The notes under the pieces are model-generated. The model was not told the DNA's origin, ran no database searches, and saw only the letters and a list, made by a program, of their open reading frames with translations. DNA of 64,000 nt from a virus (taxonomy: Duplodnaviria; Caudoviricetes). Location: positions 1 through 64,000 of the IMG/VR virus record IMGVR_UViG_3300034161_000008; one strand, written 5' to 3'. Shown piece by piece: positions 8,016-63,207 of the stretch; the first letter of the stretch is position 1, and each line of letters opens with the position of its first letter. The position numbers and the translations under genes were made by a program.

Positions 8016-8069
8016 CGGCATAAAGACCACTCCCCAGGGTAGCTTAAAGCTCCCTGGGGTTTATGTCGG
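8016..8069. terminator. Bidirectional hairpin with TTATG(C/T)CG boxes
   Basis: CGGCATAAA...CCCCAGGG-loop-CCCTGGGG-TTTATGTCGG fills the gap between two convergent stop codons. Confidence 0.7.
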
Positions 8070-10184
8070 TTAGTGGAAATCCGACACAAGTTTGGTGATC
8101 TTTGAATCGAGCCAGTAGTGCCCGAGCGTTTCGAGGATGATGTAAAACACTTTAGAGCTGTCCAGTACGATCTTCCGCACACCAATGCGGTCGAAGATTT
8201 CCGAAGGTATACCTTTGGATTGTAAGCATTGTTCTGGCAACTGGAACGTCGTTAGATTCTTACGGCCCGTACGGTCAACCCAACCCTGCATACGCGCAGC
8301 CAACGCACGATCTTCCATCCCATCGATCCAGTTCTTCAGATCGGTCTTGGTGTTGATGTCAGAAGACACCTTAACACACATGTAGGGTGGCTCTGGCGTG
8401 TCGCCGTATTTGGGTGCAAACACTTCCTGCCACAGCTGGTAGTGCATGAACGGAGATTCTTCAGCAGACTTCTTGTAGCCCTCGGCGTCTTTGATTTGAC
8501 CGATACGGAAATACTCGTAACTGCCAACACGCATGGACTCAATAATGTCGCGCTCAATCCGTGCTACCCACTTGAGGATATAATCAATGGAAATCTCGCC
8601 GTGTTCGATAAGCTGTTCCATGATGTAGATCATCATTTTCTTAGCTTCTTCCATGACGATCTTCGGCGCTTTAGAGGTCTTCAGGTGAACACCCTTGATC
8701 TCGTTCTTGTAAGCGTCGAACAAGTTACCTTCCTGGCAACCAATCAGTGCAAAGTAGTGTTTGGCTACCTGCGTCGGCGTGAAGACGTCGAACTTGAATT
8801 CGTTCTTCATCGCAATCTGGAACAGACGTTTGTTCTCGATACCGAAGTTGGCAGACATCTTGGCCAACACGTGTACGATAGTCTGAGCAGACAAAAAAAT
8901 CATAGTTGCAGCAAGCGCGTTGTCTTCGTCGCGGAAACCCAACTTACCTGCTTTCCAGATTACCCAATCCTGCACGGTGAAGATCGTGGAGTCAGTGTCC
9001 CCAGTCAATGCGGCTCGGCGGATACTGAAAGGGAAATATGCCACGGATGCTGGCATGTTGTCCGAAACCCACAGGCACTTAATCATGTCCCCGTATTCGG
9101 TCAGCACGTTCTGGATGTTCACGATGGTGGAGGCTACGATTGCAGCTTCACGAGTACCACCGATCTTGACGATCTCTTTACCCTTCATTTCCTGAGGGCA
9201 GATCTGGCACGCCAAGTGAACGTGATCTTCCATGGCATTCTTAATGACGCTGGCGGAGTCTGGATGTTCTTCACCCACACGCATGCTCAGACGACCTAAG
9301 AAGTCACGAACCAAGTTCTCGTTGTACTGCATCAGCCAATACAGATCGCCCGTGTAAACGAATGCTGCGCGTTGCAGGTCGTTCAGCTTGGAGACGATGC
9401 GATGAATGTCCAGATACTGACTGGTCGTTTGGAAGTACAGGCGCGCAGAGAACTCAATGCACGCCATCGTTTCGCGCACAGACGGAATGCGAATGTTGTA
9501 CTTCTCGACGACTGCTGCCAGCTTAGCGTAGTCCGTGTTACGAACAATGCTGATGATGTTGTTGCGAACGATGTCTGCGTTCCAGTAGTGACGATTGCCT
9601 GAGAGGAACTTCTCGTTGTTGGCGTTGCCGTAGCCTGCTGTCACGCGGCAGTTGCTGGTCAGCGTGGAGTGAGCCGTTTTGTTGTACAACGGCGTACCTG
9701 GTGTAACGTGGCCGCCGGAGATGGCGTTGTTAGCCAGCTTCTTACCCGTCTGCTCAATCTTCTTGATCTGACGGACTGGTTCGTTCTTTTCCATTTCAGC
9801 ACGGAACATTGCTTTCTTAGCAACACCCCGTGCAGCAACGTTTGAGTCGATGTACGCAACCAGCAGAGACTCCTGACGCTCTGTTGGAATGTACACGGTA
9901 AAGGTCGGAGCTACGAGGTTACGCTGCTCAACGATCTCACCCAAGTAACGAGTCAGTGGTTGTTGCTTCTTGGAGCGGTCACCGTTATCACCACGTTCAA
10001 AGAACTGAACGTTTGGATCAATCATCTTCTCCTTGGCTTTACGCTTAACGAAATCCAGACACGTCTGATAAGGTGCGCCTGTTTCGATTTGAAGTGCTAG
10101 AGCTCCGTCCTCCACGTAGTGATGGAGAACGTTAATATCTCGCTTGTAGTCTTGCTTAGGTAACACAAATGGATTTTCGAACAT
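8070..10184 (-). CDS. Family-B DNA polymerase, polymerase-domain subunit (phiKZ gp50-like split PolB)
   Basis: Motif C TGDTDSTIF and motif B-like KKLANNAISG. No exonuclease domain is apparent, consistent with the split PolB of phiKZ-like phages. Confidence 0.9.
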   Translation of the reverse strand: MFENPFVLPKQDYKRDINVLHHYVEDGALALQIETGAPYQTCLDFVKRKAKEKMIDPNVQFFERGDNGDRSKKQQPLTRYLGEIVEQRNLVAPTFTVYIPTERQESLLVAYIDSNVAARGVAKKAMFRAEMEKNEPVRQIKKIEQTGKKLANNAISGGHVTPGTPLYNKTAHSTLTSNCRVTAGYGNANNEKFLSGNRHYWNADIVRNNIISIVRNTDYAKLAAVVEKYNIRIPSVRETMACIEFSARLYFQTTSQYLDIHRIVSKLNDLQRAAFVYTGDLYWLMQYNENLVRDFLGRLSMRVGEEHPDSASVIKNAMEDHVHLACQICPQEMKGKEIVKIGGTREAAIVASTIVNIQNVLTEYGDMIKCLWVSDNMPASVAYFPFSIRRAALTGDTDSTIFTVQDWVIWKAGKLGFRDEDNALAATMIFLSAQTIVHVLAKMSANFGIENKRLFQIAMKNEFKFDVFTPTQVAKHYFALIGCQEGNLFDAYKNEIKGVHLKTSKAPKIVMEEAKKMMIYIMEQLIEHGEISIDYILKWVARIERDIIESMRVGSYEYFRIGQIKDAEGYKKSAEESPFMHYQLWQEVFAPKYGDTPEPPYMCVKVSSDINTKTDLKNWIDGMEDRALAARMQGWVDRTGRKNLTTFQLPEQCLQSKGIPSEIFDRIGVRKIVLDSSKVFYIILETLGHYWLDSKITKLVSDFH

Positions 10185-10267
10185 CTCAATTTCCCTGAAC
10201 GTGACTCACTACAGCATTGGTTGTCGGAGTAAAAAAACCTGCAACGGCATAAGAGGCAGCCACAAGG

Positions 10268-10310
10268 CCACCCGAGAGCAAAAAAAAAAAGAGGGAGTGT
10301 GAATCCCTCG
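10268..10310 (-). terminator. Intrinsic terminator
   Basis: Minus strand GAGGGA-TTCACAC-TCCCTC followed by a long T tract. Confidence 0.8.
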
Positions 10311-10319
10311 AATAGCCAT

Positions 10320-10545
10320 TTGCAACTTAAACTGGAAAGAGGCGGAAACCCCGCTGAGTGGCTTAGCGCAACCAGCAGCACAGAGGCAGCGGTTCGGGCC
10401 GATCGTCGTTAGCCAGCCACCACAAGGTGCGCTTAACGGGACCGGCAATTGCGCAACGGGTAAGGACGACAGTAGGCCGGGCGAGGCGAGTCGACAGTAC
10501 CACGAACAGCGGTCAGCGGGGTTTCCTATAACATGGCCATCTGCC
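10320..10545 (-). ncRNA. Candidate structured RNA or cis-element
   Basis: Perfect 14-bp inverted repeat GGAAACCCCGCTGA (10344-10357) / TCAGCGGGGTTTCC (10513-10526) enclosing nested short stems, followed by a terminator. Strand tentative. Confidence 0.45.
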
Positions 10546-10554
10546 AGTAATTTT

Positions 10555-14674: not shown

Positions 14675-14706
14675 TCCGAAAAAGTTTGCGGCATAAAAGT
14701 TAGGTT

Positions 14707-15223
14707 GGCCCTCTCCCGATTATGCTCGCTATCATGATAGCATGCGATAACCTTGGTCCGGCTTCTCTTTCGAGTCCGGGGGAGAGTGGGCCGTCTTTGT
14801 TACTGTCGAGCTCTTGAGAGGGGGGTTCAGTCCACGTTACTCGGTTGCCAAAAAGCGCTTGAGCCAGTCGAACTGGTTTAAGTGCTGTTCCCGTGCCTTA
14901 CTCAAATAACCAGATTTCCACCATCCGGTGGTTAACCGAAACATGTCCGGCTTTATAGGGGGTCTGTCCGGCCTAGGATTGGCTTAGCCACTCGCCCGAT
15001 GAGTGTGGTCCCAATGTTCAGGGGCCTGCTTTTGCGCAAGTAGGTTATCAAAGTCCCGAGGGACCAGGATGATTACTAATCCTAGATGGAACAGGAGTTG
15101 CAGAATGAAGAGGACAAGCCCCAGCATTTAACAGTCCTAGCGTGTAGCGCTTGGCGAAGTGAGAGTCCTTGATCTGGGGTGGGTCGACCGGTTTTAATGG
15201 TGGACTTCTTCAGCTCTCACTCG
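14707..15223 (+). ncRNA. Candidate large structured non-coding RNA
   Basis: No credible ORF over ~550 nt. Long-range closing stem 14815-14835/15200-15219, nested helices and about ten G-U pairs that work only on the + strand. Confidence 0.62.
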
Positions 15224-17402: not shown

Positions 17403-18206
17403 ATGAACGCAATCCAGAAGGCTTTGGATGAAGTCCAATTTCGCCTGCCCCGTCCGATCCTCGATACGGTGTTCATCAAGCGAGCCAAACACTACCGAGC
17501 TGGTGGTGCTAGCGTAACAGATCACATCCTTAACGAGGTGGTTCGTCCCCGTGTGTTAGTGGATTGCAACCTGTCTGGCGGTACTGAGGCTTTCATCAAC
17601 CTCAACAACCTGCACCCAGAGCGCACCAACGACTACACCCAAGTCTATCGCATCCCGAAAGAGGTGACTCAGGGTCGCAGCATCATGTCTGCACTGAACA
17701 TCACCTTTGCCGACCCAAACCGTTCGAGCTCCTACGGTGCCTCTGCAACCCAGGGTAGCTCTGCATTGCTGCAACTGGGTCAGTCTGTGATCGACGCAGG
17801 CCTACCGGTGCCTACAAGCTCCACAGCGTACGTTCAGTTGATCGGCGAGAACGTTGTGATGGTTCGTGACACCGCAGCACTGCCAGGCAACATCTTTCTG
17901 CGCTGCATCCTCGCTAACGACGAGAACATGTCGCACTTGCAGTTGAAGTCGTATCGTCACTTCTGCAAACTGGTCGAGCTGGCTGTCAAGGCTTACGTGT
18001 TCAACGAGTACGAAATCCTGATGGGCCAGACCGAGCTGTACGGCGGTATGGAGCTGGGTGTGTTCAAAGAACGTATCCTGAAGTGGGAAGAGTCTGAAGA
18101 GCTCTACCAGACCTATCTCGTCGAGAAGTGGGACAAGGTTGCGCTGATGAACGATCGTGAGAGCTGGACGCGTTTGCTGAAAGGCGTAGTGGGTGGTCCT
18201 CACTAA
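17403..18206 (+). CDS. Conserved virion structural protein (phiKZ gp35-like by synteny)
   Basis: Start MNAIQK at 17403 (RBS AAGGA). Structural-gene codon usage. Confidence 0.7.
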   Translation: MNAIQKALDEVQFRLPRPILDTVFIKRAKHYRAGGASVTDHILNEVVRPRVLVDCNLSGGTEAFINLNNLHPERTNDYTQVYRIPKEVTQGRSIMSALNITFADPNRSSSYGASATQGSSALLQLGQSVIDAGLPVPTSSTAYVQLIGENVVMVRDTAALPGNIFLRCILANDENMSHLQLKSYRHFCKLVELAVKAYVFNEYEILMGQTELYGGMELGVFKERILKWEESEELYQTYLVEKWDKVALMNDRESWTRLLKGVVGGPH

Positions 18207-18266
18207 TGGGTGGAGCCTTCGGGCTCCGCTTATGCCGCAAAAAAAGAAGGGCGATGCGCGCCCTTC
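18207..18266. terminator. Back-to-back terminators
   Basis: + strand GGAGCC-TTCG-GGCTCC then TTATGCCG. Minus strand GAAGGGCG/CGCCCTTC hairpin then T8. Confidence 0.8.
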
Positions 18267-18303
18267 TAAAAAGCTAACTCCCGAAGGAGTCAACCTGGCC
18301 ATT

Positions 18304-19487: not shown

Positions 19488-19503
19488 CTCTAACTCCATT
19501 AGG

Positions 19504-19533
19504 CGGCATAAGGGCCAGTCCGAAGACTGGCCC
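19504..19533 (-). terminator. UUCG hairpin plus TTATGCCG box
   Basis: Minus strand GGGCCAGTC-TTCG-GACTGGCCC-TTATGCCG. Confidence 0.7.
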
Positions 19534-19540
19534 CAGTAGA

Positions 19541-24888: not shown

Positions 24889-24900
24889 TTTATTTCCTTA

Positions 24901-24930
24901 GGGCATAGACGGAGGACCGAAGCCCTCCGC
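24901..24930 (-). terminator. UUCG hairpin plus CTATGCCC box
   Basis: Minus strand GCGGAGGGC-TTCG-GTCCTCCGT-CTATGCCC after the stop at 24941. Confidence 0.65.
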
Positions 24931-26919: not shown

Positions 26920-27324
26920 ATGCGCCTTGTTCGATTGTTAGCGTCCTTGATGACCTATTGGGTCGAGAAACTTAAGGGGCCGAGAACGACCGAAGAAGTC
27001 GTGGTTCCGAGAACAAGGTCGGAAGGTCTAACAGGCCACTCCGTTTCTGGGTACGAGATCAGTATCCATTGTCAGGAACGGCGTTACAAAATCCGCTACA
27101 AACGCTGGTGGATCTCTACTGAAGAGTTTCGCATGCATCACGTCTATGCAACGTTATCGGGTGATTCCCCTGACCGTCTCAAAGAAGCATGTAAACTTGA
27201 TCTAGCCTTCCCGCCTTTGCTGCCCAAATGGTCGTCAGCAAAGAAGCAACGAGAAGCAGCCATTGCAGCCTACCTCGATGTTTTGATCGCGAGACTCGAA
27301 ACCAGTGTGATCTTCAGTGCCTGA
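26920..27324 (+). CDS. Hypothetical protein
   Basis: 134 aa, RBS GAGGA. Confidence 0.62.
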   Translation: MRLVRLLASLMTYWVEKLKGPRTTEEVVVPRTRSEGLTGHSVSGYEISIHCQERRYKIRYKRWWISTEEFRMHHVYATLSGDSPDRLKEACKLDLAFPPLLPKWSSAKKQREAAIAAYLDVLIARLETSVIFSA

Positions 27325-27361
27325 CAGCATAAAGCCCGGCCTTGCGCCGGGCCTTATGCCG
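27325..27361. terminator. Bidirectional hairpin with TTATGC(C/T)G boxes
   Basis: CAGCATAAA-GCCCGGC-CTTGC-GCCGGGC-CTTATGCCG between convergent stops. Confidence 0.72.
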
Positions 27362-27366
27362 CTTTG

Positions 27367-29592
27367 TTACGCTCGCAGGTCGAACGCAGTCAAAGGACGA
27401 TCGTAAGAAACCTGTACGCCATTCACCGTAGGAGGCTTAGGCTTCCAGCTTTGATCACCCACCACGCTACGGTTCTTGGCTGCAAACTTCTGACGCTTAC
27501 GTTCTTGAGCCTGACGAATCAGACCGTCGACCGAGTAGATCTCGTCAGTTTCCAAGATCACTTGCTGATCCAGTTTACGCAACTCCATCTCCAGACGCAT
27601 CGACACAAAGTCGTCTTGCTCGTTGGAGAGCTCGTCGTACAAGACTTCCATACGCTTGCGCAGCACGGCTTGCTCTTCTTTGATCCAGATCTCCTCTTGA
27701 GTTTCGGTTGCCTTGCCTGCGATGTTGGTCATGATCTTTGTCGGATCGAGACCGTACCACTCAGGCTTGTTAGCAAAGCCCAAGAACCAGTGAACCAACA
27801 GCCAGCCGATTACCAAGTCATCGTGCTCGCCATCAGGGTGATCCACCCGTCCGTTGCGATACTCGAGCGAAAGGATTTGGTCGATCAGCGATTTGTCGTA
27901 CACGCGGTCCGAGGCACGCTTGGTGGCGTTCTGCAAAGCCAGACCATACAGACCTTTACGGCTAGTCTTACCCGAAGCCGATGTAGCGTAACCAAAGGAC
28001 TTCTTGAAGCGCACGTAGATGTCTGGATTGCGGCGAGACATTGGCAGGCGAATCTCGTTGAAGTGGTCTGGGTTCTCTTCGTAGTCGTTGACCACGGTGT
28101 TGAACAGACGACGGAACGGATCGATGCCATGCATAGGCAACTGACGCAGCAGGAAGTCAAGCAGCATCGCACCAGTGGAACGACGCTCAATGACGGCAGT
28201 GATGTTTGGGAACCGGACCAACCACTCGCACACCCACTCCGAGAACGTAATCAAGTTCGTCTCGTTGTACGTACCGACTGCAAGAGTCTCCAAGTTCTCA
28301 ACGTCCACCAATACCAGAGAGATATCATCTCCGCCGGATGCTTCCGAGGTATCCATACCCAGGATGAACTTGCCATTGGCCAGACGGCGTTCAATCTCCT
28401 CTTCCGCGATGTACCAGCGAGTAACGTAGGAGTTGGTCCCAGAGATCGAGGTGTATGCCACAGTGCGGTGAGAGGCGGCAATCTTGGTACGTACCCATTC
28501 CAGCAATGGACTGGTCTGACTACCCGACGACCACATGTTGAAGAAATCTCGGTTGGCGTCATCGCCTTCAGCCAAAGCTTCCTCTACCTTCTCACGCAAC
28601 CACTTGTCATCCTTACCCAACTGGGTGTGATTGAAAGTAGCGTTCACAGCAAAGCGGCGTTTGCGCGAAGCACCACGAACCATGCGGTCCAGTTTCTTGT
28701 GGTTTTCAGCGTCAAAGAACATCTCGGTCCAAACGGCGGCATCCGATACGATGTTGTACACGTACGCGCCATCCTTGTCATCCTTACGACCCGCAGTCGT
28801 GGTCAGGATTGTACCGTACGGCGCTCCTACGCGCTTAGCGGCGTCCACAGCGGCACCCATGGCAGACAAAGCCGCAGGCAAAGCAATGGAGATGTTGATT
28901 TGGAACGGAGGTTCGTCGATGTGGAAGATTGCGGTGGTCAAACCACGACCCATGTTCAGTGCGCGCTTAGGCGAGGACTGTGGAACGTGAGTGGTGTAGG
29001 TGTTGCCCAGACGGTCTACAGAAATCTCTTCTGTGTTGTTGGAGTCGTGGCGAGTCTGTTGCTGTAGATATCGCGGCAGCTCATCCCGGATGTCTTTAAT
29101 CCGCTGGATGTTCTTACGGCGAAGGATATCGTCCTTGGTCATCAAGTTGATAGCCGTGTCCTTGCAGAGCACGTTGAGCAGCAGGTTCATCAGGATGTCT
29201 ACGTTGAAAGACTTACCCGTCTGACGAATCTGGATCAGGATGATGAAGATGTGGTTGAAGAAACACCAGAACAACGCAATGTTGCCACGGTTGGCTTCCA
29301 GAGGTACGGCGTCACTACCAGACATGGCAGGAGCTCGTGCACACTCACGGAAGAAGTACCATGGGTTTAAGCGACACTCAACGCCGATAGCGGCCATCTG
29401 AGCTTGAGTCAAATTCGGGTCATGCGGATCTACACCTTGTAGTGCAGGGTTTACCAGTGCCAAAAGGAATGCGTGGTTCTCAATCCCCATCGCACGATAC
29501 TTCGAAGCCAGTACAACCCAGCTACGATTCTTCGTTTCTGTATCTGGGATGGCGGTTGGCCACTTCGCCCAGTCTTCTAAAAACAAGATCAT
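27367..29592 (-). CDS. terL: Terminase large subunit
   Basis: Walker A QIRQTGKS, Walker B FHIDE, RNase-H-like nuclease LGMDTSEA and terminal HDDLVIG. Confidence 0.93.
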   Translation of the reverse strand: MILFLEDWAKWPTAIPDTETKNRSWVVLASKYRAMGIENHAFLLALVNPALQGVDPHDPNLTQAQMAAIGVECRLNPWYFFRECARAPAMSGSDAVPLEANRGNIALFWCFFNHIFIILIQIRQTGKSFNVDILMNLLLNVLCKDTAINLMTKDDILRRKNIQRIKDIRDELPRYLQQQTRHDSNNTEEISVDRLGNTYTTHVPQSSPKRALNMGRGLTTAIFHIDEPPFQINISIALPAALSAMGAAVDAAKRVGAPYGTILTTTAGRKDDKDGAYVYNIVSDAAVWTEMFFDAENHKKLDRMVRGASRKRRFAVNATFNHTQLGKDDKWLREKVEEALAEGDDANRDFFNMWSSGSQTSPLLEWVRTKIAASHRTVAYTSISGTNSYVTRWYIAEEEIERRLANGKFILGMDTSEASGGDDISLVLVDVENLETLAVGTYNETNLITFSEWVCEWLVRFPNITAVIERRSTGAMLLDFLLRQLPMHGIDPFRRLFNTVVNDYEENPDHFNEIRLPMSRRNPDIYVRFKKSFGYATSASGKTSRKGLYGLALQNATKRASDRVYDKSLIDQILSLEYRNGRVDHPDGEHDDLVIGWLLVHWFLGFANKPEWYGLDPTKIMTNIAGKATETQEEIWIKEEQAVLRKRMEVLYDELSNEQDDFVSMRLEMELRKLDQQVILETDEIYSVDGLIRQAQERKRQKFAAKNRSVVGDQSWKPKPPTVNGVQVSYDRPLTAFDLRA

Positions 29593-29653
29593 CTTGCAAT
29601 CTCCAGCAAGCGCTCACGTCCACCCCACTACAGGGTGGACGCGGCACTGCCTT

Positions 29654-33969: not shown

Positions 33970-33976
33970 CTGCCTT

Positions 33977-34891: not shown

Positions 34892-35006
34892 TTGGAGCGC
34901 CCCACCTTTTCCATATAAAGCCTTTAGGACGGTCGATATACTGCATTACTATGATGTACGACATCGACCCCGTTAACCATACCATTTAGCAATAGGACTG
35001 ACACAG

Positions 35007-37112: not shown

Positions 37113-37975
37113 GCCGTATCCGCGACGCAATTCTCGCAGAGAACACGGCCTACCACGTTGGCAAGACCAATCCCATGATTGATCTCCAATACGGCGGGCA
37201 GCAGGGCTACGCGCCCGATCTCACCGAATGGGTAAGCAACCAAGCTTACATTGGCAAAAACCTGATCTGCCTGCTGGTCGAGGCCCCTAAGGGCTTCGGC
37301 TACTTGCCGGACGCCGACGCATGGGTTGGTACTCTCCGTGCGCTGGTCGAGCTGCACCCAATGTCCATCACTGGTCTGTCGGCCGGTCTGGAAGTGGAAG
37401 TAACCGAAAACGCCGCTGGCGGTGCCGGTGAAATGCAGCAAGACTTCACTGACGTGAAACGTGCTCGTTCCAACCCAGTTTTCCGCTGGAACGAGAAATA
37501 CGGCATGCCGGTGCAGACCTTCCTGCAAGGTTGGATCACCTACCTGATGATGGACCCGGCTTCCAAGTACCCGAACGTTGCGACCTTGAGTGGTAGCAAA
37601 CCTACGGACTTGCTGGCCGACCAGTACGCAGCCACGATGATCTTCATCGAGCCAGATCCGACCCACACCAAAGTGGTTAAGGCCTGGCTGTGCACCAACA
37701 TGTGGCCAATGAACACGGGCGAGATGATCGGCCGTCGTGAACTGGCTGCTGCTGGTGAACCGACTACTTACGACATTCCTTTCACTGCGCTGACTCAGTT
37801 CGGCGCTGGTGTGGATCTGCTCGCTGAGAAGTTGCTGGCTGGTATCAACATCACCGGTGCAAACCCTTACCAGCGTCCTGCTTTCTTGGACGCCATCGAC
37901 GCCGACGTTCTGGCAGCCCGCAAGGGTTACGAGAGCCAAGTCGAAGAGCTGGGTTCGCAAGCAATCCGCGTATAG
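37109..37975 (+). CDS. Tail tube protein
   Basis: 288 aa directly after the sheath (ATGA coupling). Contains tube-like IFIEPDPT...KAWLCTNMWP. Confidence 0.85.
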   Translation: MSRIRDAILAENTAYHVGKTNPMIDLQYGGQQGYAPDLTEWVSNQAYIGKNLICLLVEAPKGFGYLPDADAWVGTLRALVELHPMSITGLSAGLEVEVTENAAGGAGEMQQDFTDVKRARSNPVFRWNEKYGMPVQTFLQGWITYLMMDPASKYPNVATLSGSKPTDLLADQYAATMIFIEPDPTHTKVVKAWLCTNMWPMNTGEMIGRRELAAAGEPTTYDIPFTALTQFGAGVDLLAEKLLAGINITGANPYQRPAFLDAIDADVLAARKGYESQVEELGSQAIRV

Positions 37976-38017
37976 CGGCATAAGGAGAGCAGCCTTTCGG
38001 GGCTGCTCTCTATGCTG
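37976..38017. terminator. Bidirectional hairpin with TATGC(C/T)G boxes
   Basis: CGGCATAA-GGAGAGCAGCC-TTTCGG-GGCTGCTCT-CTATGCTG between convergent stops. Confidence 0.72.
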
Positions 38018-38021
38018 TAAA

Positions 38022-38432: not shown

Positions 38433-38560
38433 GAGACTTCCTTTCGTGATTAATCGGAGTACACAAAATCCACCAAACAAATAAAAAAAAAAGAGTGTCG
38501 GGTAGTCCCGGCTTTTATGCCGTCATAGACGGAAGACCGAAGTCTCCCGCCTACTCAGGT

Positions 38561-39555: not shown

Positions 39556-39572
39556 ACGAAGTCTCCAGAGAT

Positions 39573-39615
39573 AAAAAAAATAGTAACCTAAGATGGGGAG
39601 TTCTTAGGTTACTAC
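39573..39615 (-). terminator. Intrinsic terminator
   Basis: Minus strand TAGTAACCTAAGA-loop-TCTTAGGTTACTA followed by a T tract. Confidence 0.85.
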
Positions 39616-39660
39616 GCTAACAGGCATACGCTGAAAGAAGGAGTGAACAGCGCAGCAGGA

Positions 39661-40423: not shown

Positions 40424-40582
40424 GCGATGTACTCCTTGCAGCATAAAACGCTGCCAAGCCCCTTGCAGGACCCGGCAGCGTACACAGTGCTCACAACAGC
40501 TCCGTTGAATGTCAATGTTTTCGGCGTACCGAAGTACCCGATGGGCTGACCAGCTCCTGCTCTGTTGCTCGCGAGTGTTTAG

Positions 40583-40762: not shown

Positions 40763-40764
40763 TG

Positions 40765-41271: not shown

Positions 41272-41305
41272 GTGAATCTTCCTTCTTGCGGGTTTTTTGA
41301 GTGAG

Positions 41306-41629
41306 TTAGATTTTTGCTTTCTTCAAAGCGAAGGGCGAGATGAATCGCCCAGGTACTTCGGTACGTTCCAGCGTGTGTGCCTGATGGATCTTGTGGTTGC
41401 CCAAAAGGACGATCAGCGCACCACCGCGTTTGGTGTAAACGACTTCTTCCACAGTCGGATTAGGATGCGGAGGAGAGAGTTCACCAGCCAGATCACCGAT
41501 GGTAAGTTCTGCGACTTTTACCTTTTCGATGCGGGCTTGTTTTGCGAGTGCGACAACGGCTTCGAGATCGTAAAGGGCATCGTTCCAACGAAGCACTTGG
41601 CGACCCTGAGAGTTAATCCGCATGAGCAT
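41306..41629 (-). CDS. Hypothetical protein
   Basis: Start MLMRIN at 41629 (RBS AAGGAAA). Confidence 0.68.
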   Translation of the reverse strand: MLMRINSQGRQVLRWNDALYDLEAVVALAKQARIEKVKVAELTIGDLAGELSPPHPNPTVEEVVYTKRGGALIVLLGNHKIHQAHTLERTEVPGRFISPFALKKAKI

Positions 41630-41686
41630 TGTTTCCTTGTCGTTTTCTATACCAAGACGTAACACCGTTATTTTCTACTCGTGTTA

Positions 41687-41695
41687 GTAATAAGT
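41687..41695 (-). promoter_or_regulatory. Putative phage early-type promoter (ACTTATTAC)
   Basis: Third copy of the 9-mer, upstream of the 41.6-38.0 kb run. Confidence 0.55.
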
Positions 41696-41715
41696 GGCTG
41701 AGATTTATTTGATTG

Positions 41716-41743
41716 CGGCATAAGGGCAGCCCTAAGGCCGCCC
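41716..41743 (-). terminator. Hairpin plus TTATGCCG box
   Basis: Minus strand GGGCGGCC-TTAG-GGCTGCCC-TTATGCCG directly after the protease stop. Confidence 0.7.
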
Positions 41744-41748
41744 CTATG

Positions 41749-42504
41749 TTACCAGCGCAGGAACGCTGGACGTTCAACAGGCTTGTTGGACCAGCCCATC
41801 GAAGCGAACAACTCAGCACCACTGAGGATAACGGACTCTTGAGCGATGCCCGCAACCACACTTTGGCTCTGAGCGCGTTCGATATCGCCGCGAGTAAAGG
41901 TCTGATCGAACTGACCCTCCAGTGCAGGAGACATCCACTTCTCAGCCACCGACAACCCAGGCTCGTTCACGTAGTCCCACGTGACGACAGTCTTGAGGTG
42001 ACGATGTACAATCCCGCCCAGCCGGTGATCGTCTGTGAAGGCCCGGATAGAGAAACAGACGTTCTCGTTAGGGTTCTTCAACGAACGCTCCAGAGCAGCA
42101 CCGTGAGGGCCCGCAGGGAGGATATCGCCGATGATGGCGATGATCGGATTCCCTTTGGCGTCCTTGATGCTGTTGAAGTCCAGCTCCAGGTTCATGATGT
42201 GGTGGGAGACTTTGTCTTCCCAGATCGACATCACGCGGTTAGCGAACTCGTTGCTGGATTGACCCGGCAGCGGTTTCGGGTGGCCGTATTCCCCACGCAG
42301 TGCGCCCTTTGCACAACGACGCATCAGCTGGCTCGAATTCTCGAACAAAGCTTTTGCAGGCTCGTAAGCATAGAACTCACCAGCAGAGTTGAACATGTTC
42401 AGGGCACCGAGCACGACACGGTAGTAGCCTTGCTCGTTTTGCTTGAGGTTACCGACTTTGTTTATACCGGCCAAAGCCGTACAAACGAACTTAATGGAAT
42501 TCAT
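41749..42504 (-). CDS. Prohead (head maturation) protease, phiKZ gp175-like
   Basis: GEYGHP histidine motif and FSIR serine motif, 251 aa, canonical position upstream of the virion RNAP. Confidence 0.85.
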   Translation of the reverse strand: MNSIKFVCTALAGINKVGNLKQNEQGYYRVVLGALNMFNSAGEFYAYEPAKALFENSSQLMRRCAKGALRGEYGHPKPLPGQSSNEFANRVMSIWEDKVSHHIMNLELDFNSIKDAKGNPIIAIIGDILPAGPHGAALERSLKNPNENVCFSIRAFTDDHRLGGIVHRHLKTVVTWDYVNEPGLSVAEKWMSPALEGQFDQTFTRGDIERAQSQSVVAGIAQESVILSGAELFASMGWSNKPVERPAFLRW

Positions 42505-57761: not shown

Positions 57762-57828
57762 ACGGTCATCGATCCCACAAGGACGTGGGATTGTATGATT
57801 ATCTTTAACTCTTGTTAGGAGTAGGAAA

Positions 57829-59787
57829 ATGGGTCCTCTGTTGAAGGACGCCAGTTGGGTCCGTCAGTCCTTCCTTGTGGAAGCGGAATACCTCGAAGAC
57901 ATTGACCTGGCGAACCGAACGTTCTCCTCAGTTTCGACGAAATTCACTGACACAACTCCTGGTGGCAGTTTTGCTATTAACGCTCCACCCCAATTCACAC
58001 GACACGCTGATATCAAGCGCAAAGGTATCTTTGTCGGTTCCAAAGGCATGGGTCGCTACTACAGCGAGGCTATCGACGACAACAGCCGTCTAGTCCACAT
58101 GCGTTTCGGCGTGCCTCAGTTCAACAGCCTGACCACGTTCTTCACCGGGTTCTATAACTCAGGTGCTGGGCAGTTGGCTCGCACGGGTCGATCCAAGGGT
58201 TTGTTCTTCCTGATTGGTCGTGCGGTAGGCTTTGTGGTGACAACCCTGCACTGGCTGCCACTGGCGGTTAGTATTCTGGGTTACGGTTTGCGGTTCTTCC
58301 TGAACAAGCCTTCGAGCAAGTTCTATTACCTCAAGCCAACGATGGGTCTGTATTGGAACGCCGTGACCACCATCGTCAACCAGTTGGCGGTTTACACAGG
58401 CGTGATCCCTCGCTCAGGGGGTACTCCTGATTCCAACGAGAAGATGGGGGACCAATACGAGTTTGACGCTGCGGCACTCCAGAAGATGCACGAGCTGCTA
58501 CCTGACATCTTTAAAGAAGGTGGTGGTATCGACGTGTATGCTCTGGCGAACCGGGCACAACGTCTGGCCAACCGTCAGATCAAAGAAGTTCAGAAAGCGA
58601 TGGAAGAAGAGCAATCCGGTGCTGCACTGGCTGCTCGTCTGCGTAAGATCCGTTTGACCGCTGACAACAAGCCGGACCTGAACGATCACCTGTCGTACTA
58701 CTGGAAGTCCGAACCGTCCAAGCCTAAAGAAGCGACCACCTCGCCTATTAACGCTGACGGCACTGTGGCTACCGGCACTGATCCAACTCAGGCTCAACAA
58801 TCGGGTAACCTGTTCCAAGGCGACACCACGATTGAAGAAGGTCAGAAAGGTGAGAGCTGGTGGAGTGGCTTCAAAGAGTTCTTGAAAGCTGAACTGGATG
58901 ACGGTTCTGCCTTCGCGACCTTCCGTGTGGATGCTGGTGGTTCTGTGTCGGAGACTTTCTCCAGCACCGTAACCGAGTCGGAGATCGCGAACAAGATTAA
59001 CGACATGTCGTCTGAAAACCGTAAGTCCAACTTCAACTTCGCTGGTGGTAACATCATCGGGGGTGCGCTGGGTTCTGCGGTCGGTATGGTGACTGGCGCC
59101 GTTAAAGATTTGGTGGCGGGTATTGGTGAACAGATCCAGGTCTCTGGTCTGGCTGCATTGGGTGGTTCGGCTTTCGTAGACATCCCTAAACACTGGCAGA
59201 ACTCTTCGGCTAGCGTTGCAGCACCTTCGTACACGTTCTCCCTGATCTCTCCGTACGGCAACCCGATCAGTTTGTTGACCAACATCTACATCCCACTGGC
59301 AATGTTGCTGGCGGGTAGTCTGCCTCTGTCCACCGGTAAACAGTCCTACACCTCTCCATTCATTTGCGAGCTGTACGACCAAGGCCGTTGCCAGACACGA
59401 CTGGGGATGATTGACAACCTACAGATCACTCGCGGTGGCGGTAACCTGGGCTTCACTAACGAAGGCCAAGTTCTCCAGATCGACGTGAGCTTCTCTGTAG
59501 TGGACATGTCGTCCGTGCTGCACATGCCAATCACCAGTGGCTTCTCTTTGAACCCACTGGAAGGCGTGTTCGACGACGAAACCATCTTCACCGACTACAT
59601 GGCTGTTCTGGCAGGTTTGGGTCTGGCTGACCAGATCTATCCTTCACGCAAGATGAAACTGAACTGGACGCGCAAGATGGCGAACTGGGACAGCTTCTTC
59701 TCGACCACTCACTTTACAAGCTTTTTGGGGGATACCCCTCCGGGGCGTCTCTTCAGTGCCTTCTACCGTGGGACGAGTCGTTTTTAG
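57829..59787 (+). CDS. Tail/baseplate structural protein (phiKZ gp182-like)
   Basis: 652 aa following the tape measure. C-terminal tube/baseplate-like GMIDNLQITRGGG...IDVSFSVVD. Confidence 0.75.
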   Translation: MGPLLKDASWVRQSFLVEAEYLEDIDLANRTFSSVSTKFTDTTPGGSFAINAPPQFTRHADIKRKGIFVGSKGMGRYYSEAIDDNSRLVHMRFGVPQFNSLTTFFTGFYNSGAGQLARTGRSKGLFFLIGRAVGFVVTTLHWLPLAVSILGYGLRFFLNKPSSKFYYLKPTMGLYWNAVTTIVNQLAVYTGVIPRSGGTPDSNEKMGDQYEFDAAALQKMHELLPDIFKEGGGIDVYALANRAQRLANRQIKEVQKAMEEEQSGAALAARLRKIRLTADNKPDLNDHLSYYWKSEPSKPKEATTSPINADGTVATGTDPTQAQQSGNLFQGDTTIEEGQKGESWWSGFKEFLKAELDDGSAFATFRVDAGGSVSETFSSTVTESEIANKINDMSSENRKSNFNFAGGNIIGGALGSAVGMVTGAVKDLVAGIGEQIQVSGLAALGGSAFVDIPKHWQNSSASVAAPSYTFSLISPYGNPISLLTNIYIPLAMLLAGSLPLSTGKQSYTSPFICELYDQGRCQTRLGMIDNLQITRGGGNLGFTNEGQVLQIDVSFSVVDMSSVLHMPITSGFSLNPLEGVFDDETIFTDYMAVLAGLGLADQIYPSRKMKLNWTRKMANWDSFFSTTHFTSFLGDTPPGRLFSAFYRGTSRF

Positions 59788-59830
59788 CGTCATAGGCCCC
59801 AGCCCCGAAAAGGGCTGGGGCTGTATGCTG
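59788..59830. terminator. Bidirectional hairpin with TATG boxes
   Basis: CGTCATAG-GCCCCAGCCC-CGAAAA-GGGCTGGGGC-TGTATGCTG spans stop to stop. Confidence 0.72.
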
Positions 59831-61018
59831 TCAGAAGTAGATGTTCTTCACTTTCTCGAACAGGTTCATGTCTGTCGAGTAAGCATCCTGTTTGGCTTTC
59901 TCTGCTTTGTAACCAGCCAGCCCAGTCAGTTGCAGTGGGTTGTCGGTGAGGCGCGAGTCTGCTTTGGCAGGTGCTTGGTAGGTGATAGGCGTAGTGGTGA
60001 TCGCCGGAGAGAAAGCCGCTGCCGAGAAATCAGACTTCAGACTGTCCGCTACAGAGGTCGACGAGAACACGTTAGCCAAAGAGTACATCGAACGATCTTT
60101 GGAATCATCCGAGGACTGGTTGGTAGACGCAGCACCAATGGCCGACTTAGCTGCCGGGGAAGCACCTTGAATCGTGGTGATGTCGGTGATCTTGCTGCCC
60201 AGACGAGAAGCTTTGTCCCAACCATTGTCTACAGCATCAAACGCACGAAAGATGCTCGAACCTTCAGACTGCAAGTCACGAACCGAGTTGTACGCAGGGT
60301 TGGTGTAGTTGCGGGAGAAGTCATTGAGAAGCTGAGGGTTCACAGCCTTCAGTACGCCCTGTGCGGTCCCTGCCGCTACACCGAGTAGGCCAGCGGTGTC
60401 AGAACCTCCCACAATGGCTGGTAGGATGTTACCGGCCACACGGTTTATGATGTTCGGGTCACGAATGGCCGAAACGATACCACCGAAGCTATTGGGGATG
60501 CCCAGTGCTGTCGCTTCGTTGATAATCCCCGTGTAGAGACCTGCCAGACCATCGTTGTCCTTGACCACGAAGTCGTAAGCGTCACCCGCCACATCAGAGA
60601 TCAGCGAACCCAAAGCTTTCACGTCAGCCACAGCTGAGGAACTAACTTTGGAGATCACACCACCGATGGATGCAAACACACCATCCTTTTCGTCGAACGC
60701 TCCGAGGATGCCATCCCCCACTTTGCTGGACAGGTCTTTAAAGCCAGCCAGTAGTCCCGAGTTAGAACCAATCACGCGTCCGATCAAAGCAGACTTGTCG
60801 ATGACCAACCCGGCAGCATCGATACCACGAACCACAGAGCCCATAGCAGCACTGAAGTCACCACCGCGCATGCTAGACAGCTTCGTCGTGTCAAAGCGCG
60901 TACGGATGTCCTGGATGCTGTTGATCACGGTGTTCGAAGACTTGGCGTAGACGTCTACCGTTGCGGCGGCGTCCTTGGCACCCGACGAGAAGGAGGTGGT
61001 CGTTAATGAACCAGCCAT
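59831..61018 (-). CDS. Putative virion protein, S/A/G-rich
   Basis: Start MAGSLT at 61018 (RBS GGAGG). Confidence 0.68.
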   Translation of the reverse strand: MAGSLTTTSFSSGAKDAAATVDVYAKSSNTVINSIQDIRTRFDTTKLSSMRGGDFSAAMGSVVRGIDAAGLVIDKSALIGRVIGSNSGLLAGFKDLSSKVGDGILGAFDEKDGVFASIGGVISKVSSSAVADVKALGSLISDVAGDAYDFVVKDNDGLAGLYTGIINEATALGIPNSFGGIVSAIRDPNIINRVAGNILPAIVGGSDTAGLLGVAAGTAQGVLKAVNPQLLNDFSRNYTNPAYNSVRDLQSEGSSIFRAFDAVDNGWDKASRLGSKITDITTIQGASPAAKSAIGAASTNQSSDDSKDRSMYSLANVFSSTSVADSLKSDFSAAAFSPAITTTPITYQAPAKADSRLTDNPLQLTGLAGYKAEKAKQDAYSTDMNLFEKVKNIYF

Positions 61019-61037
61019 AAAAACCTCCAAATAAACC

Positions 61038-61062
61038 AAAAAAAGAAGGACCGAAGTCCTTC
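61038..61062 (-). terminator. Intrinsic terminator
   Basis: Minus strand GAAGGAC-TTCG-GTCCTTC followed by T7. Confidence 0.85.
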
Positions 61063-61081
61063 TAGTTAAGAGCGCCCAACC

Positions 61082-61585: not shown

Positions 61586-62097
61586 ACCGTCTCCGCAGCC
61601 TTGAGATCTAGCAGACCTTGTTCCTGATTCTGCTCACGCTCTTCAGCATCTTCTGGTTCGTCTTCCAACTCGCCTTCGATTTCAGGTTCAGCAGTGTCTT
61701 CCAACATTTGTTGCATTGAGATGTTACCCAATGGAACGTTAACCGTGTGGATCGTTGGGTTGGGTTTACCCGCGTGCGTCGCCTCGATTGTAATCTTGAG
61801 GTGGACGATGTGCAGAAAACGCATGGCCTTCACGAAGACTTTCCAAGTCATCTGAGGTCGTGCAAATTCTTTAGTGATATTGCCACGGATACTCGTTTGA
61901 TCGCGCTTGTTGTTGGGAACCCCGTTTCGTACATCGTTGATAAACGAATGCATCAGAACACCCCAACGCATTGGGTTGATGCCATTGTCCAGCAACATGA
62001 TTCGGAACATGCGCGACAGTACACCGTTCACACCGGTAGTACGGTTTACTCCTTTGTCCGGAGACGTCAGAAGTTGAGTGATCTTATTTCTGGCCAC
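61582..62097 (-). CDS. Conserved hypothetical protein with acidic tail
   Basis: 171 aa, ATGA coupling. Confidence 0.72.
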   Translation of the reverse strand: MARNKITQLLTSPDKGVNRTTGVNGVLSRMFRIMLLDNGINPMRWGVLMHSFINDVRNGVPNNKRDQTSIRGNITKEFARPQMTWKVFVKAMRFLHIVHLKITIEATHAGKPNPTIHTVNVPLGNISMQQMLEDTAEPEIEGELEDEPEDAEEREQNQEQGLLDLKAAETV

Positions 62098-62109
62098 AGT
62101 ACAACCCTC

Positions 62110-62622
62110 TTATTTGCGATAAGCAATAGACAGCAATGCTCTCGTCAAAGTCTGGATGTCGGCAAACACGTGCGTGAGCATTCTTAAGTTGTGCTCATAG
62201 TGCGCGTGGGTCTCACCCTCGTCTTTGTCCATGGCCATACAGATGCCTTGGGCGTGACGCTTGAAGGTTGCGACAGCCATTGAGATTTCCATGATGTAAC
62301 CATCTTTGGTCACCAGGTAATCTTCAAGGTTTGTTACGGTACGATCGATCTTCACCACGTCCGGGGTGATGTGTCGACCATTCTTCAGCTTGAAGGCGAT
62401 GTCCTGCAAGTTGTTGAAGAACAGATCAACGTTCGGATACAGCATTTTCAGCTCCAGCTGAAAACCTTGCATCGGCTGATAAGTATCGAACTGATCAGTT
62501 TGAAGCAGCTCTAAAAGCTCCCAGGTCTGTACGCGATCCGGCTCGTACGGTTTGACTGGTTCGCCTCGCGTCACTTGCTTGACACGATAATTGAGCAATC
62601 GACGTTTTATCCACATGGACAA
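62110..62622 (-). CDS. Conserved hypothetical protein
   Basis: 170 aa, RBS CGGAG. Confidence 0.72.
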   Translation of the reverse strand: MSMWIKRRLLNYRVKQVTRGEPVKPYEPDRVQTWELLELLQTDQFDTYQPMQGFQLELKMLYPNVDLFFNNLQDIAFKLKNGRHITPDVVKIDRTVTNLEDYLVTKDGYIMEISMAVATFKRHAQGICMAMDKDEGETHAHYEHNLRMLTHVFADIQTLTRALLSIAYRK

Positions 62623-62709
62623 CTCCGCTTAAAATGAACCCATTGATAGAACATAGCGTAACCACTACACCTAGATGATATGTGTTTCAAATTAACTTGG
62701 TGGTGTGAT

Positions 62710-63162
62710 ATGTCTCAGGTAGAAGTCGTGGACAGAGACGACGCCGTCCTTGATTATACTCAAGGCGTGCTGCGCGATCTCACGCAAGACATCCTCAAGA
62801 AGGGTGTTGCAGAAGTAGGCGACGACGATAAGAAACTTTTATTGGTCGCGTTAAGAGATATGGCTGGTACGGCCATTGGTCGTAAACGCATCAAAGTTGA
62901 AGAACGTGTAGCTGACACTGCTGAAGGTACTGCTGGTCTGATTGCTCAGATCCTGCACGACTCCACGCTGATGAACCACTTCCGGGCAGATCCTAAAGAC
63001 ATTACTCCTCGTGCGAAAGTTGTATTGGGTAGTGATGTTCCGGAACCAACGTTCCTGCCGGGCGAGATGGACATCCAGACCGCACAGCAAGACGTTGAGA
63101 GCTTCATGGCGCGCACGGCGCACCTGTCTGAACAGTTTGACGACGACGAAGGCGACGAGTAA
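62710..63162 (+). CDS. Hypothetical protein
   Basis: Likely start MSQVEV at 62710. Acidic C-terminus. Confidence 0.7.
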   Translation: MSQVEVVDRDDAVLDYTQGVLRDLTQDILKKGVAEVGDDDKKLLLVALRDMAGTAIGRKRIKVEERVADTAEGTAGLIAQILHDSTLMNHFRADPKDITPRAKVVLGSDVPEPTFLPGEMDIQTAQQDVESFMARTAHLSEQFDDDEGDE

Positions 63163-63207
63163 AGCTAGGTCATAGCGGGCAGGGTCTACCCCTGCCCGCT
63201 TATGCCG
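63163..63207. terminator. Bidirectional hairpin with TATG boxes
   Basis: GGTCATAG-CGGGCAGGG-loop-CCCTGCCCG-CTTATGCCG between convergent stops. Confidence 0.72.

What the first reader, a model, noticed from the sequence alone, without database searches (positions are those of the whole stretch)
8016..63207. Recurrent hairpin + YTATG(C/A/T)(C/T)G element: a U-tract-free terminator class?
Seen: about 19 copies of a box TTATGCCG / CTATGCTG / CTATGACG, nearly all directly 3' of a GC-rich hairpin. Minus strand: 8016, 10245, 14689, 19504, 24901, 27325, 37976, 38521, 40439, 41716, 59788, 63168. Plus strand: 8060, 18230, 27353, 38010, 38513, 59823, 63200. At five convergent junctions (8016-8069, 27325-27361, 37976-38017, 59788-59830, 63163-63207) the unit fills nearly the whole gap between the stops, with one box per strand and no poly-U. 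Classical U-tract terminators also occur (482, 2684, 10268, 18239, 39573, 61038), twice in tandem or back-to-back with this element. Established: phiKZ late promoters use a TATG core. Inference: at convergent junctions a promoter would only make antisense RNA, so a sequence-specific termination or RNA-processing signal for one of the two phage RNA polymerases is more likely.
Basis: partly seen in the sequence, partly recalled or inferred. Interest (0 to 1): 0.72.

Follow-up and report, generated by a model that had tools for sequence, protein, structure and literature searches.

The report
Jumbo-phage terminator hairpins with TATG box

Summary
Observation confirmed. All 19 listed boxes are present and sit 0-4 nt (once 9 nt) after a GC-rich hairpin. 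The loose pattern YTATGHYG is not enriched by itself. However, TATG is the most enriched 4-mer right after GC-rich hairpins in the whole 218-kb genome (36 vs 3.4 expected). About 59 units exist genome-wide, with consensus hairpin-YYTATGCYGY.

Units lie at gene 3' ends. They occupy 14 of 20 convergent junctions (mostly one box per strand), 0 of 20 divergent junctions and 17 of 202 co-directional junctions. All 51 strong hairpins differ in sequence while the box stays fixed.

The window is a chimallivirus (chimallin, split RNAP beta subunit, phiKZ synteny). Putzeys et al. 2024 mapped 61 phiKZ transcript 3' ends to a stem-loop followed by YTTATKYYGT. Motif A of 201phi2-1 resembles it. I found the same box after hairpins in phiKZ, Burkholderia FLC9, Ralstonia RP12, Xanthomonas Xoo-sp14 and an Erwinia phage. 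U-rich tails replace it at orthologous junctions of more distant relatives.

Verdict: a phiKZ-type intrinsic terminator, bidirectional at convergent genes. This is a new member of a known kind, and this scan has reached the same conclusion on at least 24 other genomes. Still open: why the box contains the nvRNAP late-promoter core TATG, and which phage polymerase reads it.

The parts
8016..8069 (.). Bidirectional terminator unit filling the convergent gap. Hairpin 8032-8059. Plus-strand box is TTTATGTCG at 8060-8068. Minus-strand box is TTATGCCG at 8016-8023, 9 nt after the stem.
10244..10273 (-). Hairpin + TTATGCCG unit. It sits directly downstream, in tandem, of a classical hairpin+T11 terminator at about 10280-10309(-).
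14688..14725 (-). TTATGCCG box with only a weak upstream hairpin. An SD (Shine-Dalgarno ribosome-binding site) and a start codon follow 27 nt downstream.
18210..18238 (+). Hairpin (UUCG loop) + TTATGCCG, 4 nt after the stop of gene 17403-18206. It lies back-to-back with two minus-strand U-tract terminators at about 18239-18294.
19503..19534 (-). Co-directional unit: hairpin (UUCG loop) + TTATGCCG, 7 nt after the upstream stop. SD and start of the next gene lie 23 nt downstream.
24900..24930 (-). Co-directional unit: hairpin (UUCG loop) + CTATGCCC. The next start codon is 19 nt downstream.
27324..27362 (.). Bidirectional unit between ORF 26920-27324(+) and the terminase gene 27367-29592(-). It forms an extended palindrome, GCATAA-hairpin-TTATGC.
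37975..38018 (.). Bidirectional unit between the gp30-like virion gene 37109-37975(+) and gene 38022-38432(-). The orthologous junction carries a unit in phiKZ, FLC9, RP12, Xoo-sp14, BUCT660 and Bosolaphorus.
38497..38551 (.). Two adjacent hairpins whose boxes overlap at 38515-38528. The minus unit (38520-38551, CTATGACG) is sense to the flanking genes. The plus unit (38497-38523, TTTTATGCCG) is antisense.
40438..40479 (-). Long hairpin (-23 kcal/mol) + TTTTATGCTG, followed by AAGGAG and a GTG start 22 nt downstream.
41715..41752 (.). Palindromic unit in a co-directional (minus) junction. The sense box is TTATGCCG at 41716-41723. The antisense box is CTATGTTA at 41744-41751.
57770..57801 (+). 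The next start is 35 nt downstream.
59787..59831 (.). Bidirectional unit filling the 43-nt convergent gap (hairpin about -24 kcal/mol). Boxes are CTATGACG(-) and GTATGCTG(+).
63167..63208 (.). Bidirectional unit filling the 45-nt convergent gap. Boxes are GCTATGACC(-) and TTATGCCG(+).
2684..2712 (-). Classical hairpin (UUCG loop) + T7 terminator after the chimallin gene 2735-4636(-). Included for comparison.
39570..39615 (-). Classical hairpin + T8 terminator. Included for comparison.
61038..61062 (-). Classical hairpin (UUCG loop) + T7 terminator. Included for comparison.

Best explanation
Each unit is a factor-independent (intrinsic) transcription terminator of the phiKZ type. The nascent RNA folds into a GC-rich stem-loop (median 10 bp, often a UUCG or other tetraloop). 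A short conserved tail, YY-UAUG-C-Y-G-Y, follows at once and takes the place of the usual U-tract. Transcription by the phage's own multisubunit RNA polymerase(s) ends there.

At convergent gene pairs one hairpin serves both directions, so the box appears on both strands as CATA...hairpin...TATG and the unit fills the gap between the two stop codons.

Shown here: the anatomy, the statistics, the gene-end placement, conservation of the box across distant relatives, and its interchange with U-rich tails. Taken from the literature on relatives: RNA 3' ends map to this motif. Inferred: that the same holds in this uncultured phage, and how the box acts. Candidate actions are a short UUAU weak hybrid plus a pause-like YG step, or direct recognition of TATG.
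For: 1. All listed sites are present.
2. TATG is the most enriched 4-mer after GC-rich hairpins, 36 vs 3.4 expected. 46/499 TATGs against 6/1500 random positions have a strong upstream fold.
3. Placement: 14/20 convergent, 0/20 divergent and 17/202 co-directional junctions (p=3e-6). The TATG typically lies 25-60 nt past the stop of the gene upstream, on the same strand.
4. The position weight matrix of 59 units gives YYTATGCYGY, with a pyrimidine at +5 in 59/59. Hairpin-free TATGs at divergent junctions lack this flank.
5. All 51 strong hairpins have different sequences, so structure and box are conserved but stem sequence is not.
6. The genome is a chimallivirus: chimallin, RNAP beta subunit, and terminase-to-sheath synteny with phiKZ.
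7. Literature: 61 phiKZ terminators mapped by ONT-cappable-seq share stem-loop + YTTATKYYGT, and 6 are bidirectional (PMC10914365). 201phi2-1 motif A (n=59) resembles it, and eight selected 201phi2-1 terminators (chosen to cover the different motifs) worked in a reporter (PMC11512511).
8. TATG enrichment after hairpins in relatives: phiKZ 13x, FLC9 18x, RP12 16x, Xoo-sp14 10.5x, Erwinia Bosolaphorus 9.4x, across 37-58% GC.
9. At the orthologous junction after the gp30-like gene, hairpin+box in seven phages is replaced by hairpin+U-rich tail in RSL2, SPFM2 and Vibrio XC32.
10. In IMG/VR, palindromic CGGCATAA-hairpin-TTATGCCG units with a strong hairpin lie mostly in contigs of 110 kb or more: 13/20 against 2/60 for hairpin-less matches, p=2e-8.
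Against: There is no RNA 3'-end evidence for this phage itself. Only short assembled contigs of public runs were available, and they cannot show transcript ends.

The published 3' ends in relatives could in principle be processed or trimmed ends rather than true termination points.

The box contains TATG, the core of the phiKZ nvRNAP late promoter (PMC4666361). In 13 or so co-directional units no other TATG lies between the box and the next start codon, so a promoter role there is not excluded.
Confidence: 0.85

Rival explanations
1. Composite terminator-promoter module. The hairpin stops the upstream transcript, and the TATG of the box is at the same time a working nvRNAP late promoter (start at its G) that restarts transcription for the next gene. 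At convergent junctions it would then make antisense RNA.
For: TATG with G as the start site is the essential phiKZ late-promoter core (PMC4666361). It is read on the non-template strand by the beta-like lobe (PMC12809450). In 17 co-directional units an SD and a start codon follow 17-95 nt after the TATG, usually with no other TATG in between. Bare TATG and its complement CATA rank 4th and 2nd among the most depleted 4-mers inside genes, on both strands (obs/exp 0.47 and 0.43), as expected for a promoter core.
Against: No hairpin+box unit lies at any of the 20 divergent junctions, where only promoters are expected. Hairpin-free TATGs sit there instead, with A/T-rich flanks and no CYG. About half of all units face the 3' end of a convergent gene. 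The region from -3 to -25 is a GC-rich stem that would be hard to melt. TATG alone is not sufficient in phiKZ, where replacing the downstream promoter sequence cut transcription about 30-fold. The validated phiKZ promoter P119L has no upstream hairpin. Three or four co-directional junctions carry a separate hairpin-free TATG closer to the start codon.
Confidence: 0.2
2. RNA processing or stability element. Transcripts read through, a host or phage endonuclease cuts in the single-stranded UUAUG tail, and the hairpin then protects the new 3' end.
For: The AU-rich single-stranded tail next to a stable stem-loop resembles typical endonuclease entry sites (general knowledge, not tested here). 3'-end mapping in relatives cannot by itself tell termination from processing.
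Against: The conserved G-C-Y-G part of the box is not explained by an AU-rich cleavage preference. The box is interchangeable with plain U-tracts at orthologous junctions and on the opposite face of the same hairpin. Selected 201phi2-1 terminators blocked downstream reporter expression in a terminator trap.
Confidence: 0.1
3. Dispersed mobile palindromic repeat (REP- or MITE-like), or a compositional accident.
For: There are many copies in intergenic DNA and some are perfect palindromes. The degenerate 8-mer alone is not enriched over shuffles.
Against: All 51 hairpins differ in sequence and only the 8-10 nt box is shared. Orientation is strictly tied to gene ends. The same box occurs in phages of 37-58% GC. 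Enrichment after hairpins is 10-fold.
Confidence: 0.01

Closest known systems
Conserved intrinsic-terminator motif of Pseudomonas phage phiKZ (Putzeys et al. 2024, Microlife, PMC10914365) and motif A of phage 201phi2-1 (PMC11512511)
   Same: A GC-rich stem-loop is followed immediately by YTTAT(G/T)YYGT. Units lie just after stop codons and form bidirectional versions between convergent genes. The host phage is a nucleus-forming jumbo phage with two multisubunit RNAPs. I found the identical box in phiKZ DNA itself.
   Different: This is an uncultured 52.7% GC phage whose nearest cultured relatives infect Burkholderia and Ralstonia (54-57% protein identity in one virion gene). Its stems are longer and more varied than the phiKZ GCCCTCCC type. 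The fourth box base is almost always G here, whereas phiKZ also uses T. No RNA ends have been mapped.
phiKZ nvRNAP late promoter (TATG, G = +1; Yakunina et al. 2015, PMC4666361; structure PMC12809450)
   Same: It shares the invariant tetranucleotide TATG. TATG is strongly avoided inside genes in this genome.
   Different: Promoters need no upstream hairpin and show no conserved downstream bases. The units have a GC-rich stem at -3 to -25 and a conserved C-Y-G after TATG. They sit at gene 3' ends and never at divergent junctions.
Canonical bacterial intrinsic terminator (GC hairpin + U-tract)
   Same: Both have a GC-rich hairpin with a tetraloop, a U-rich first 3-4 tail bases (YUUAU), placement after stop codons, and bidirectional use. 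The two types are interchangeable at orthologous junctions and coexist in this genome.
   Different: The tail is a fixed heteropolymeric word, not a run of 5 or more U. A standard terminator scan finds only the few units that happen to read TTTTATG.

Membership tests
phiKZ-type conserved terminator motif | GC-rich stem-loop immediately followed by YTTAT(G/T)YYGT | tested here: met
   The position weight matrix of 59 units gives YYTATGCYGY, with a gap of 0-4 nt after the stem. The same box occurs in phiKZ DNA.
phiKZ-type conserved terminator motif | Located at 3' ends of genes or operons, bidirectional between convergent genes | tested here: met
   Units occupy 14/20 convergent, 0/20 divergent and 17/202 co-directional junctions. 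The TATG lies typically 25-60 nt past the upstream stop.
phiKZ-type conserved terminator motif | Carried by a phiKZ-like (chimallivirus) phage with its own multisubunit RNAPs | tested here: met
   Chimallin, RNAP beta subunit, and terminase-sheath synteny with phiKZ. Sigma-70-like promoters are depleted.
phiKZ-type conserved terminator motif | Transcript 3' ends map to the element | not testable with these tools
   Only assembled contigs of public runs were available, and they cannot show RNA ends.
phiKZ-type conserved terminator motif | Termination activity in a reporter or in vitro assay | not tested
   Needs bench work. It has been done only for eight 201phi2-1 terminators.
phiKZ nvRNAP late promoter | TATG core | tested here: met
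   TATG is invariant in the units, though it was also the anchor used to collect them. An independent test is.
phiKZ nvRNAP late promoter | Placed upstream of genes irrespective of an upstream gene end, including divergent junctions | tested here: not met
   0/20 divergent junctions carry a hairpin+box unit. About half of the units point into the 3' end of a convergent gene.
phiKZ nvRNAP late promoter | Transcription start at the G of TATG | not testable with these tools
   There are no 5'-end data for this phage.
Canonical intrinsic terminator | Run of U (at least 5 of 8) right after the stem | tested here: not met
   A standard scan of 27-42 kb finds only the TTTTATG variants of the units. 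The tail consensus is YYUAUGCYG.
REP/MITE-like dispersed repeat | Copies share sequence over their whole length | tested here: not met
   There are 51 distinct hairpin sequences among 51 units.

The most novel reading that the evidence does not exclude
The box may not be a mere weak U-tract. It could be a polymerase-specific stop word. Under this reading the elongating non-virion RNAP re-reads the non-template TATG with the same beta-lobe pocket that recognises its late promoter. It pauses there, and the adjacent hairpin then releases the RNA.

On this view the TATG-box terminators would belong to nvRNAP (middle/late) transcription units. Plain U-tract terminators would serve the virion RNAP (early) units. 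This fits a weak trend seen here: the box follows structural and DNA-polymerase genes, and U-tracts follow chimallin and unknown small genes. It also fits the TATT/U-rich tails in small-gene blocks of phiKZ that I presume to be early.
Probability: 0.2. Interest if true: 0.6.

Novelty: new member of a known kind. Interest (0 to 1): 0.25.

Why it matters
The result lets transcription units of this and other uncultured chimalliviruses be delimited from sequence alone, where standard terminator finders miss most of these sites. It also shows that the phiKZ terminator box is conserved across phages of Pseudomonas, Burkholderia, Ralstonia, Xanthomonas and Erwinia despite GC contents of 37-58%. That conservation argues that the box is read by conserved phage machinery.

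The one open question of wider interest is why a terminator tail carries the nvRNAP promoter core, a word the phage otherwise avoids in its genes. The termination mechanism of these sigma-embedded, split-subunit RNAPs has not been studied in vitro: I found no paper on it.

Tried and rejected
1. The degenerate 8-mer count alone is not enriched. A maximal-order Markov 8-mer test was too conservative to show anything.
2. My first crude gene caller mis-called shadow ORFs. I replaced it with a hexamer model.
3. Public sequencing runs gave only Logan contigs. The metatranscriptome pieces are 150-270 nt and cannot show RNA ends or strands, so there is no evidence either way. One RNA contig ends at 63179, inside the 63167-63208 hairpin, which is anecdotal only.
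4. The search for related loci with the gp30-like protein found no close relative in IMG/VR.
5. Rfam has no family matching anything in the window.
6. A k-mer and AT-rich-window search for an early-promoter motif gave nothing clear. Genes could therefore not be assigned to early or late classes by promoter.
7. ORFs starting at the ATG inside the box have a median of 17 codons, so a start-codon role is rejected.
8. The supplementary TSS/TTS tables of the phiKZ and 201phi2-1 papers are not held. Ceyssens 2014 is not held either. Overlap of mapped TSSs with box TATGs could therefore not be checked.
It is usable only after filtering for an inner hairpin.

Full report
WHAT THE WINDOW IS

The window is the first 64 kb of a 218,436-bp IMG/VR virus record with direct terminal repeats and 52.7% GC. 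PHROG matches identify a nuclear shell protein (chimallin, 2735-4741-), a 1429-aa RNAP beta-like subunit and a DNA polymerase. They also identify a terminase, a tail sheath and a 2306-aa tail/lysin protein. Gene order from terminase to sheath matches phiKZ gp25-gp30. The phage is therefore a phiKZ-like, nucleus-forming jumbo phage.

The nearest cultured relatives are Burkholderia phage FLC9 and Ralstonia phage RP12. They share 54-57% protein identity in the gp30-like virion gene and about 72% nucleotide identity in the sheath gene. Sigma-70-like promoters are depleted in the window (1 against 8.9 +/- 3.5 in shuffles). This fits transcription by the phage's own polymerases.

CHECKING THE OBSERVATION

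The loose pattern YTATGHYG is not enriched by itself: 21 matches against 15.8 +/- 3.9. The association with hairpins is what is significant.
- Over the whole genome, TATG is the most enriched tetramer in the 0-4 nt after GC-rich perfect stems: 36 against 3.4 expected.
- 46 of 499 TATGs have an upstream 34-nt fold of -14 kcal/mol or lower, against 6 of 1500 random positions.

With hexamer-model gene calls (243 genes, 93.7% coding) I collected 51 clear units plus 8 with weaker or long-loop hairpins. The consensus around the anchor is stem-Y-Y-T-A-T-G-C-Y-G-Y. The second base after TATG is a pyrimidine in 59 of 59 units.

The 51 hairpins are all different in sequence. Median stem length is 10 bp and median energy is -18 kcal/mol. 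UUCG is the commonest loop. What is conserved is therefore a structure plus a short word, not a repeat.

The five convergent junctions are filled from stop codon to stop codon exactly as described. ORF 26920-27324 has a homologue in FLC9 (E=7.5e-24), which makes 27325-27366 a true convergent gap.

WHERE THE UNITS SIT

- Convergent junctions: 14 of 20 carry units, mostly with one box per strand. Several of the remaining six have boxes with weaker hairpins, or rest on doubtful small gene calls.
- Divergent junctions: 0 of 20 carry a unit.
- Co-directional junctions: 17 of 202 carry a unit on the sense strand. Fisher's test for convergent against divergent gives p=3e-6.

The TATG typically lies 25-60 nt past the stop codon of the gene upstream on the same strand. 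Several co-directional hairpins have a U-tract on the sense side and the box on the antisense side, or both in tandem. The two tails are thus alternatives on the same kind of hairpin.

Divergent junctions instead hold hairpin-free TATGs with A/T-rich surroundings and no C-Y-G. These are the likely late promoters. This distribution is what a terminator predicts and what a promoter does not.

WHAT IS ALREADY KNOWN

Putzeys et al. 2024 (PMC10914365) mapped 133 termination regions in phiKZ by ONT-cappable-seq. They reported that 61 share a stem-loop followed by a TTAT region, with consensus ...GGBYTTATKYYGT. Six were bidirectional terminators between convergent genes. The 201phi2-1 study (PMC11512511) found a motif A (n=59) that "strongly resembles" it. 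That study showed eight selected terminators (chosen to cover the different motifs) to be active in a reporter in Pseudomonas chlororaphis.

Neither paper mentions that the tail contains TATG. TATG is the essential core of the phiKZ nvRNAP late promoter, with G as +1 (PMC4666361). It is read on the non-template strand by the beta-like lobe (PMC12809450). I found no study of termination by these polymerases.

RELATIVES

I ran the same unbiased test (which tetramer follows GC-rich hairpins) on 145 kb of phiKZ and on about 40 kb from each of eight other chimalliviruses.

Phages where TATG ranks first:

| Phage | Enrichment |
|---|---|
| phiKZ | 13x |
| Burkholderia FLC9 | 18x |
| Ralstonia RP12 | 16x |
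| Xanthomonas Xoo-sp14 | 10.5x |
| Erwinia Bosolaphorus | 9.4x |
| Ralstonia RSL2 | 6x (4 cases only) |

Serratia BUCT660 and Vibrio XC32 show mainly TTAT/TATT. Salmonella SPFM2 shows U-rich tails.

At the orthologous junction after the gp30-like gene every phage has a hairpin. The tail is the TATG box in this phage, FLC9, RP12 (two in tandem), Xoo-sp14, phiKZ, BUCT660 and Bosolaphorus. The tail is U-rich in RSL2, SPFM2 and Vibrio XC32. This interchange with ordinary U-tracts at the same gene end is good comparative evidence that the box does a terminator's job.

The validated phiKZ late promoter P119L lies in a divergent gap and has no hairpin upstream of its TATG.

I scanned IMG/VR for the palindromic form CGGCATAA-N14-30-TTATGCCG. 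Only 29 of 115 matches enclose a strong hairpin. Of the 20 such matches with a listed contig size, 13 lie in contigs of 110 kb or more. Only 2 of 60 hairpin-less matches do (p=2e-8). The unit is thus a signature of jumbo viral genomes.

The earlier notes of this scan report the same element and the same reading in at least 24 other genomes.

MECHANISM

I commit to an intrinsic terminator (confidence 0.85). The hairpin forms in the nascent RNA, and the polymerase stops within or just beyond YUUAUGCYG.
- Shown: structure, placement, conservation, and equivalence to U-tracts.
- Borrowed from relatives: that 3' ends map there.
- Inferred: how the tail works.

Three ideas for the tail are compatible with the data.
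1. UUAU acts as a short weak hybrid next to the stem.
2. The conserved Y-G step acts as a pause point, by analogy with bacterial elemental pauses.
3. The polymerase's promoter-reading pocket directly recognises the non-template TATG.

THE TATG PUZZLE

Inside genes, TATG and its complement CATA rank 4th and 2nd among all 256 tetramers for depletion against synonymous-codon shuffles (obs/exp 0.47 and 0.43). The depletion does not depend on the next base. Intergenic density is 4.7-fold higher than genic density.

Equal avoidance on both strands is what one expects for a promoter core. Yet the phage places this word at nearly every terminator, including those that face a convergent gene. Either the GC-rich stem and the lack of suitable downstream sequence keep the box silent as a promoter, or the word has a second role in elongation.

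A restart-promoter role at co-directional units cannot be excluded (rival, 0.2). The absence of units from divergent junctions argues against it. So do the distinct flanks and the separate hairpin-free TATGs in three or four co-directional gaps.

WHICH POLYMERASE

This is only a weak trend. Among genes whose terminators I annotated, 9 of 16 box-terminated genes are virion or packaging genes. These include the major head protein, internal head protein, baseplate and terminase. Two more are DNA polymerases. Among U-tract-terminated genes, 1 of 11 is structural and one is chimallin (p=0.018). The genes were not chosen at random.

In phiKZ, the plus-strand small-gene blocks at 1-12 kb and 105-115 kb mostly have TATT/U-rich tails, whereas structural regions have TATG tails. 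gp14 in the first block is described as early-expressed (PMC11849849 abstract). The early/late assignment of these blocks otherwise rests on my own recollection and was not verified.

VERDICT

The element belongs to a terminator class already described experimentally in phiKZ and 201phi2-1. This is a new member of a known kind, and interest is low to moderate. The residual interest lies in the unexplained identity of the terminator tail with the late-promoter core, and in a possible division of labour between the two phage polymerases.

Noticed in passing
whole genome G000 (window included): TATG and its complement CATA rank 4th and 2nd among the 256 tetramers for depletion inside genes against synonymous-codon shuffles (obs/exp 0.47 and 0.43). 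The depletion is equal on both strands and independent of the next base. AATT, TTTT, AAAA, ATAT and GAGG are also strongly depleted.
   Followed up: partly
window 2684-2712(-) and G000:C1 about 124-143 kb and 168-190 kb: Classical U-tract terminators follow chimallin and clusters of unknown-function genes. TATG-box terminators follow mostly virion, packaging and DNA-polymerase genes (1/11 vs 9/16 structural, p=0.018). In phiKZ, small-gene blocks at 1-12 kb and 105-115 kb likewise favour TATT/U-rich tails. This may reflect a division between the two phage RNAPs.
   Followed up: partly
G000:C1 68987-69047, 187073-187137, 195015-195094: These convergent junctions carry one box per strand. The boxes are preceded by G-rich tracts that pair only weakly over long loops (about 15-27 nt) instead of forming a compact hairpin. 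They look like a degenerate or different-geometry variant of the unit.
   Followed up: no
window 27000-42000: Sigma-70-type promoter-like sites are strongly depleted (1 found against 8.9 +/- 3.5 in shuffles). This is consistent with host-RNAP-independent transcription.
   Followed up: no
L015 (Ralstonia phage RSL2) 20867-20935: The orthologous terminator has a U-tract followed by GCCG (stem-TTTTTGCCGCC). It looks like a hybrid of the U-tract and the distal part of the box, which hints that the GYYG part has a role of its own.
   Followed up: no
G000:C1 146616 and 147836 (minus strand): Two near-identical hairpins lie 1.2 kb apart. One is followed by TATGCTAC and the other by AAACCCG. Both carry CTTATTACGG on the opposite strand. 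This may be a local duplication with loss of the box.
   Followed up: no
window 5628-8015(+): The 795-aa ORF is partly a shadow. Only residues 435-795 match phage families. The real gene is about 7011-8015(+), with a separate minus-strand gene at 5661-6899.
   Followed up: partly
window 63181-63189: A roughly 96%-identical relative in a wastewater run differs by a 1-nt insertion and a 1-nt deletion within the 63167-63208 terminator hairpin. It keeps the surrounding unit (contig evidence only).
   Followed up: no
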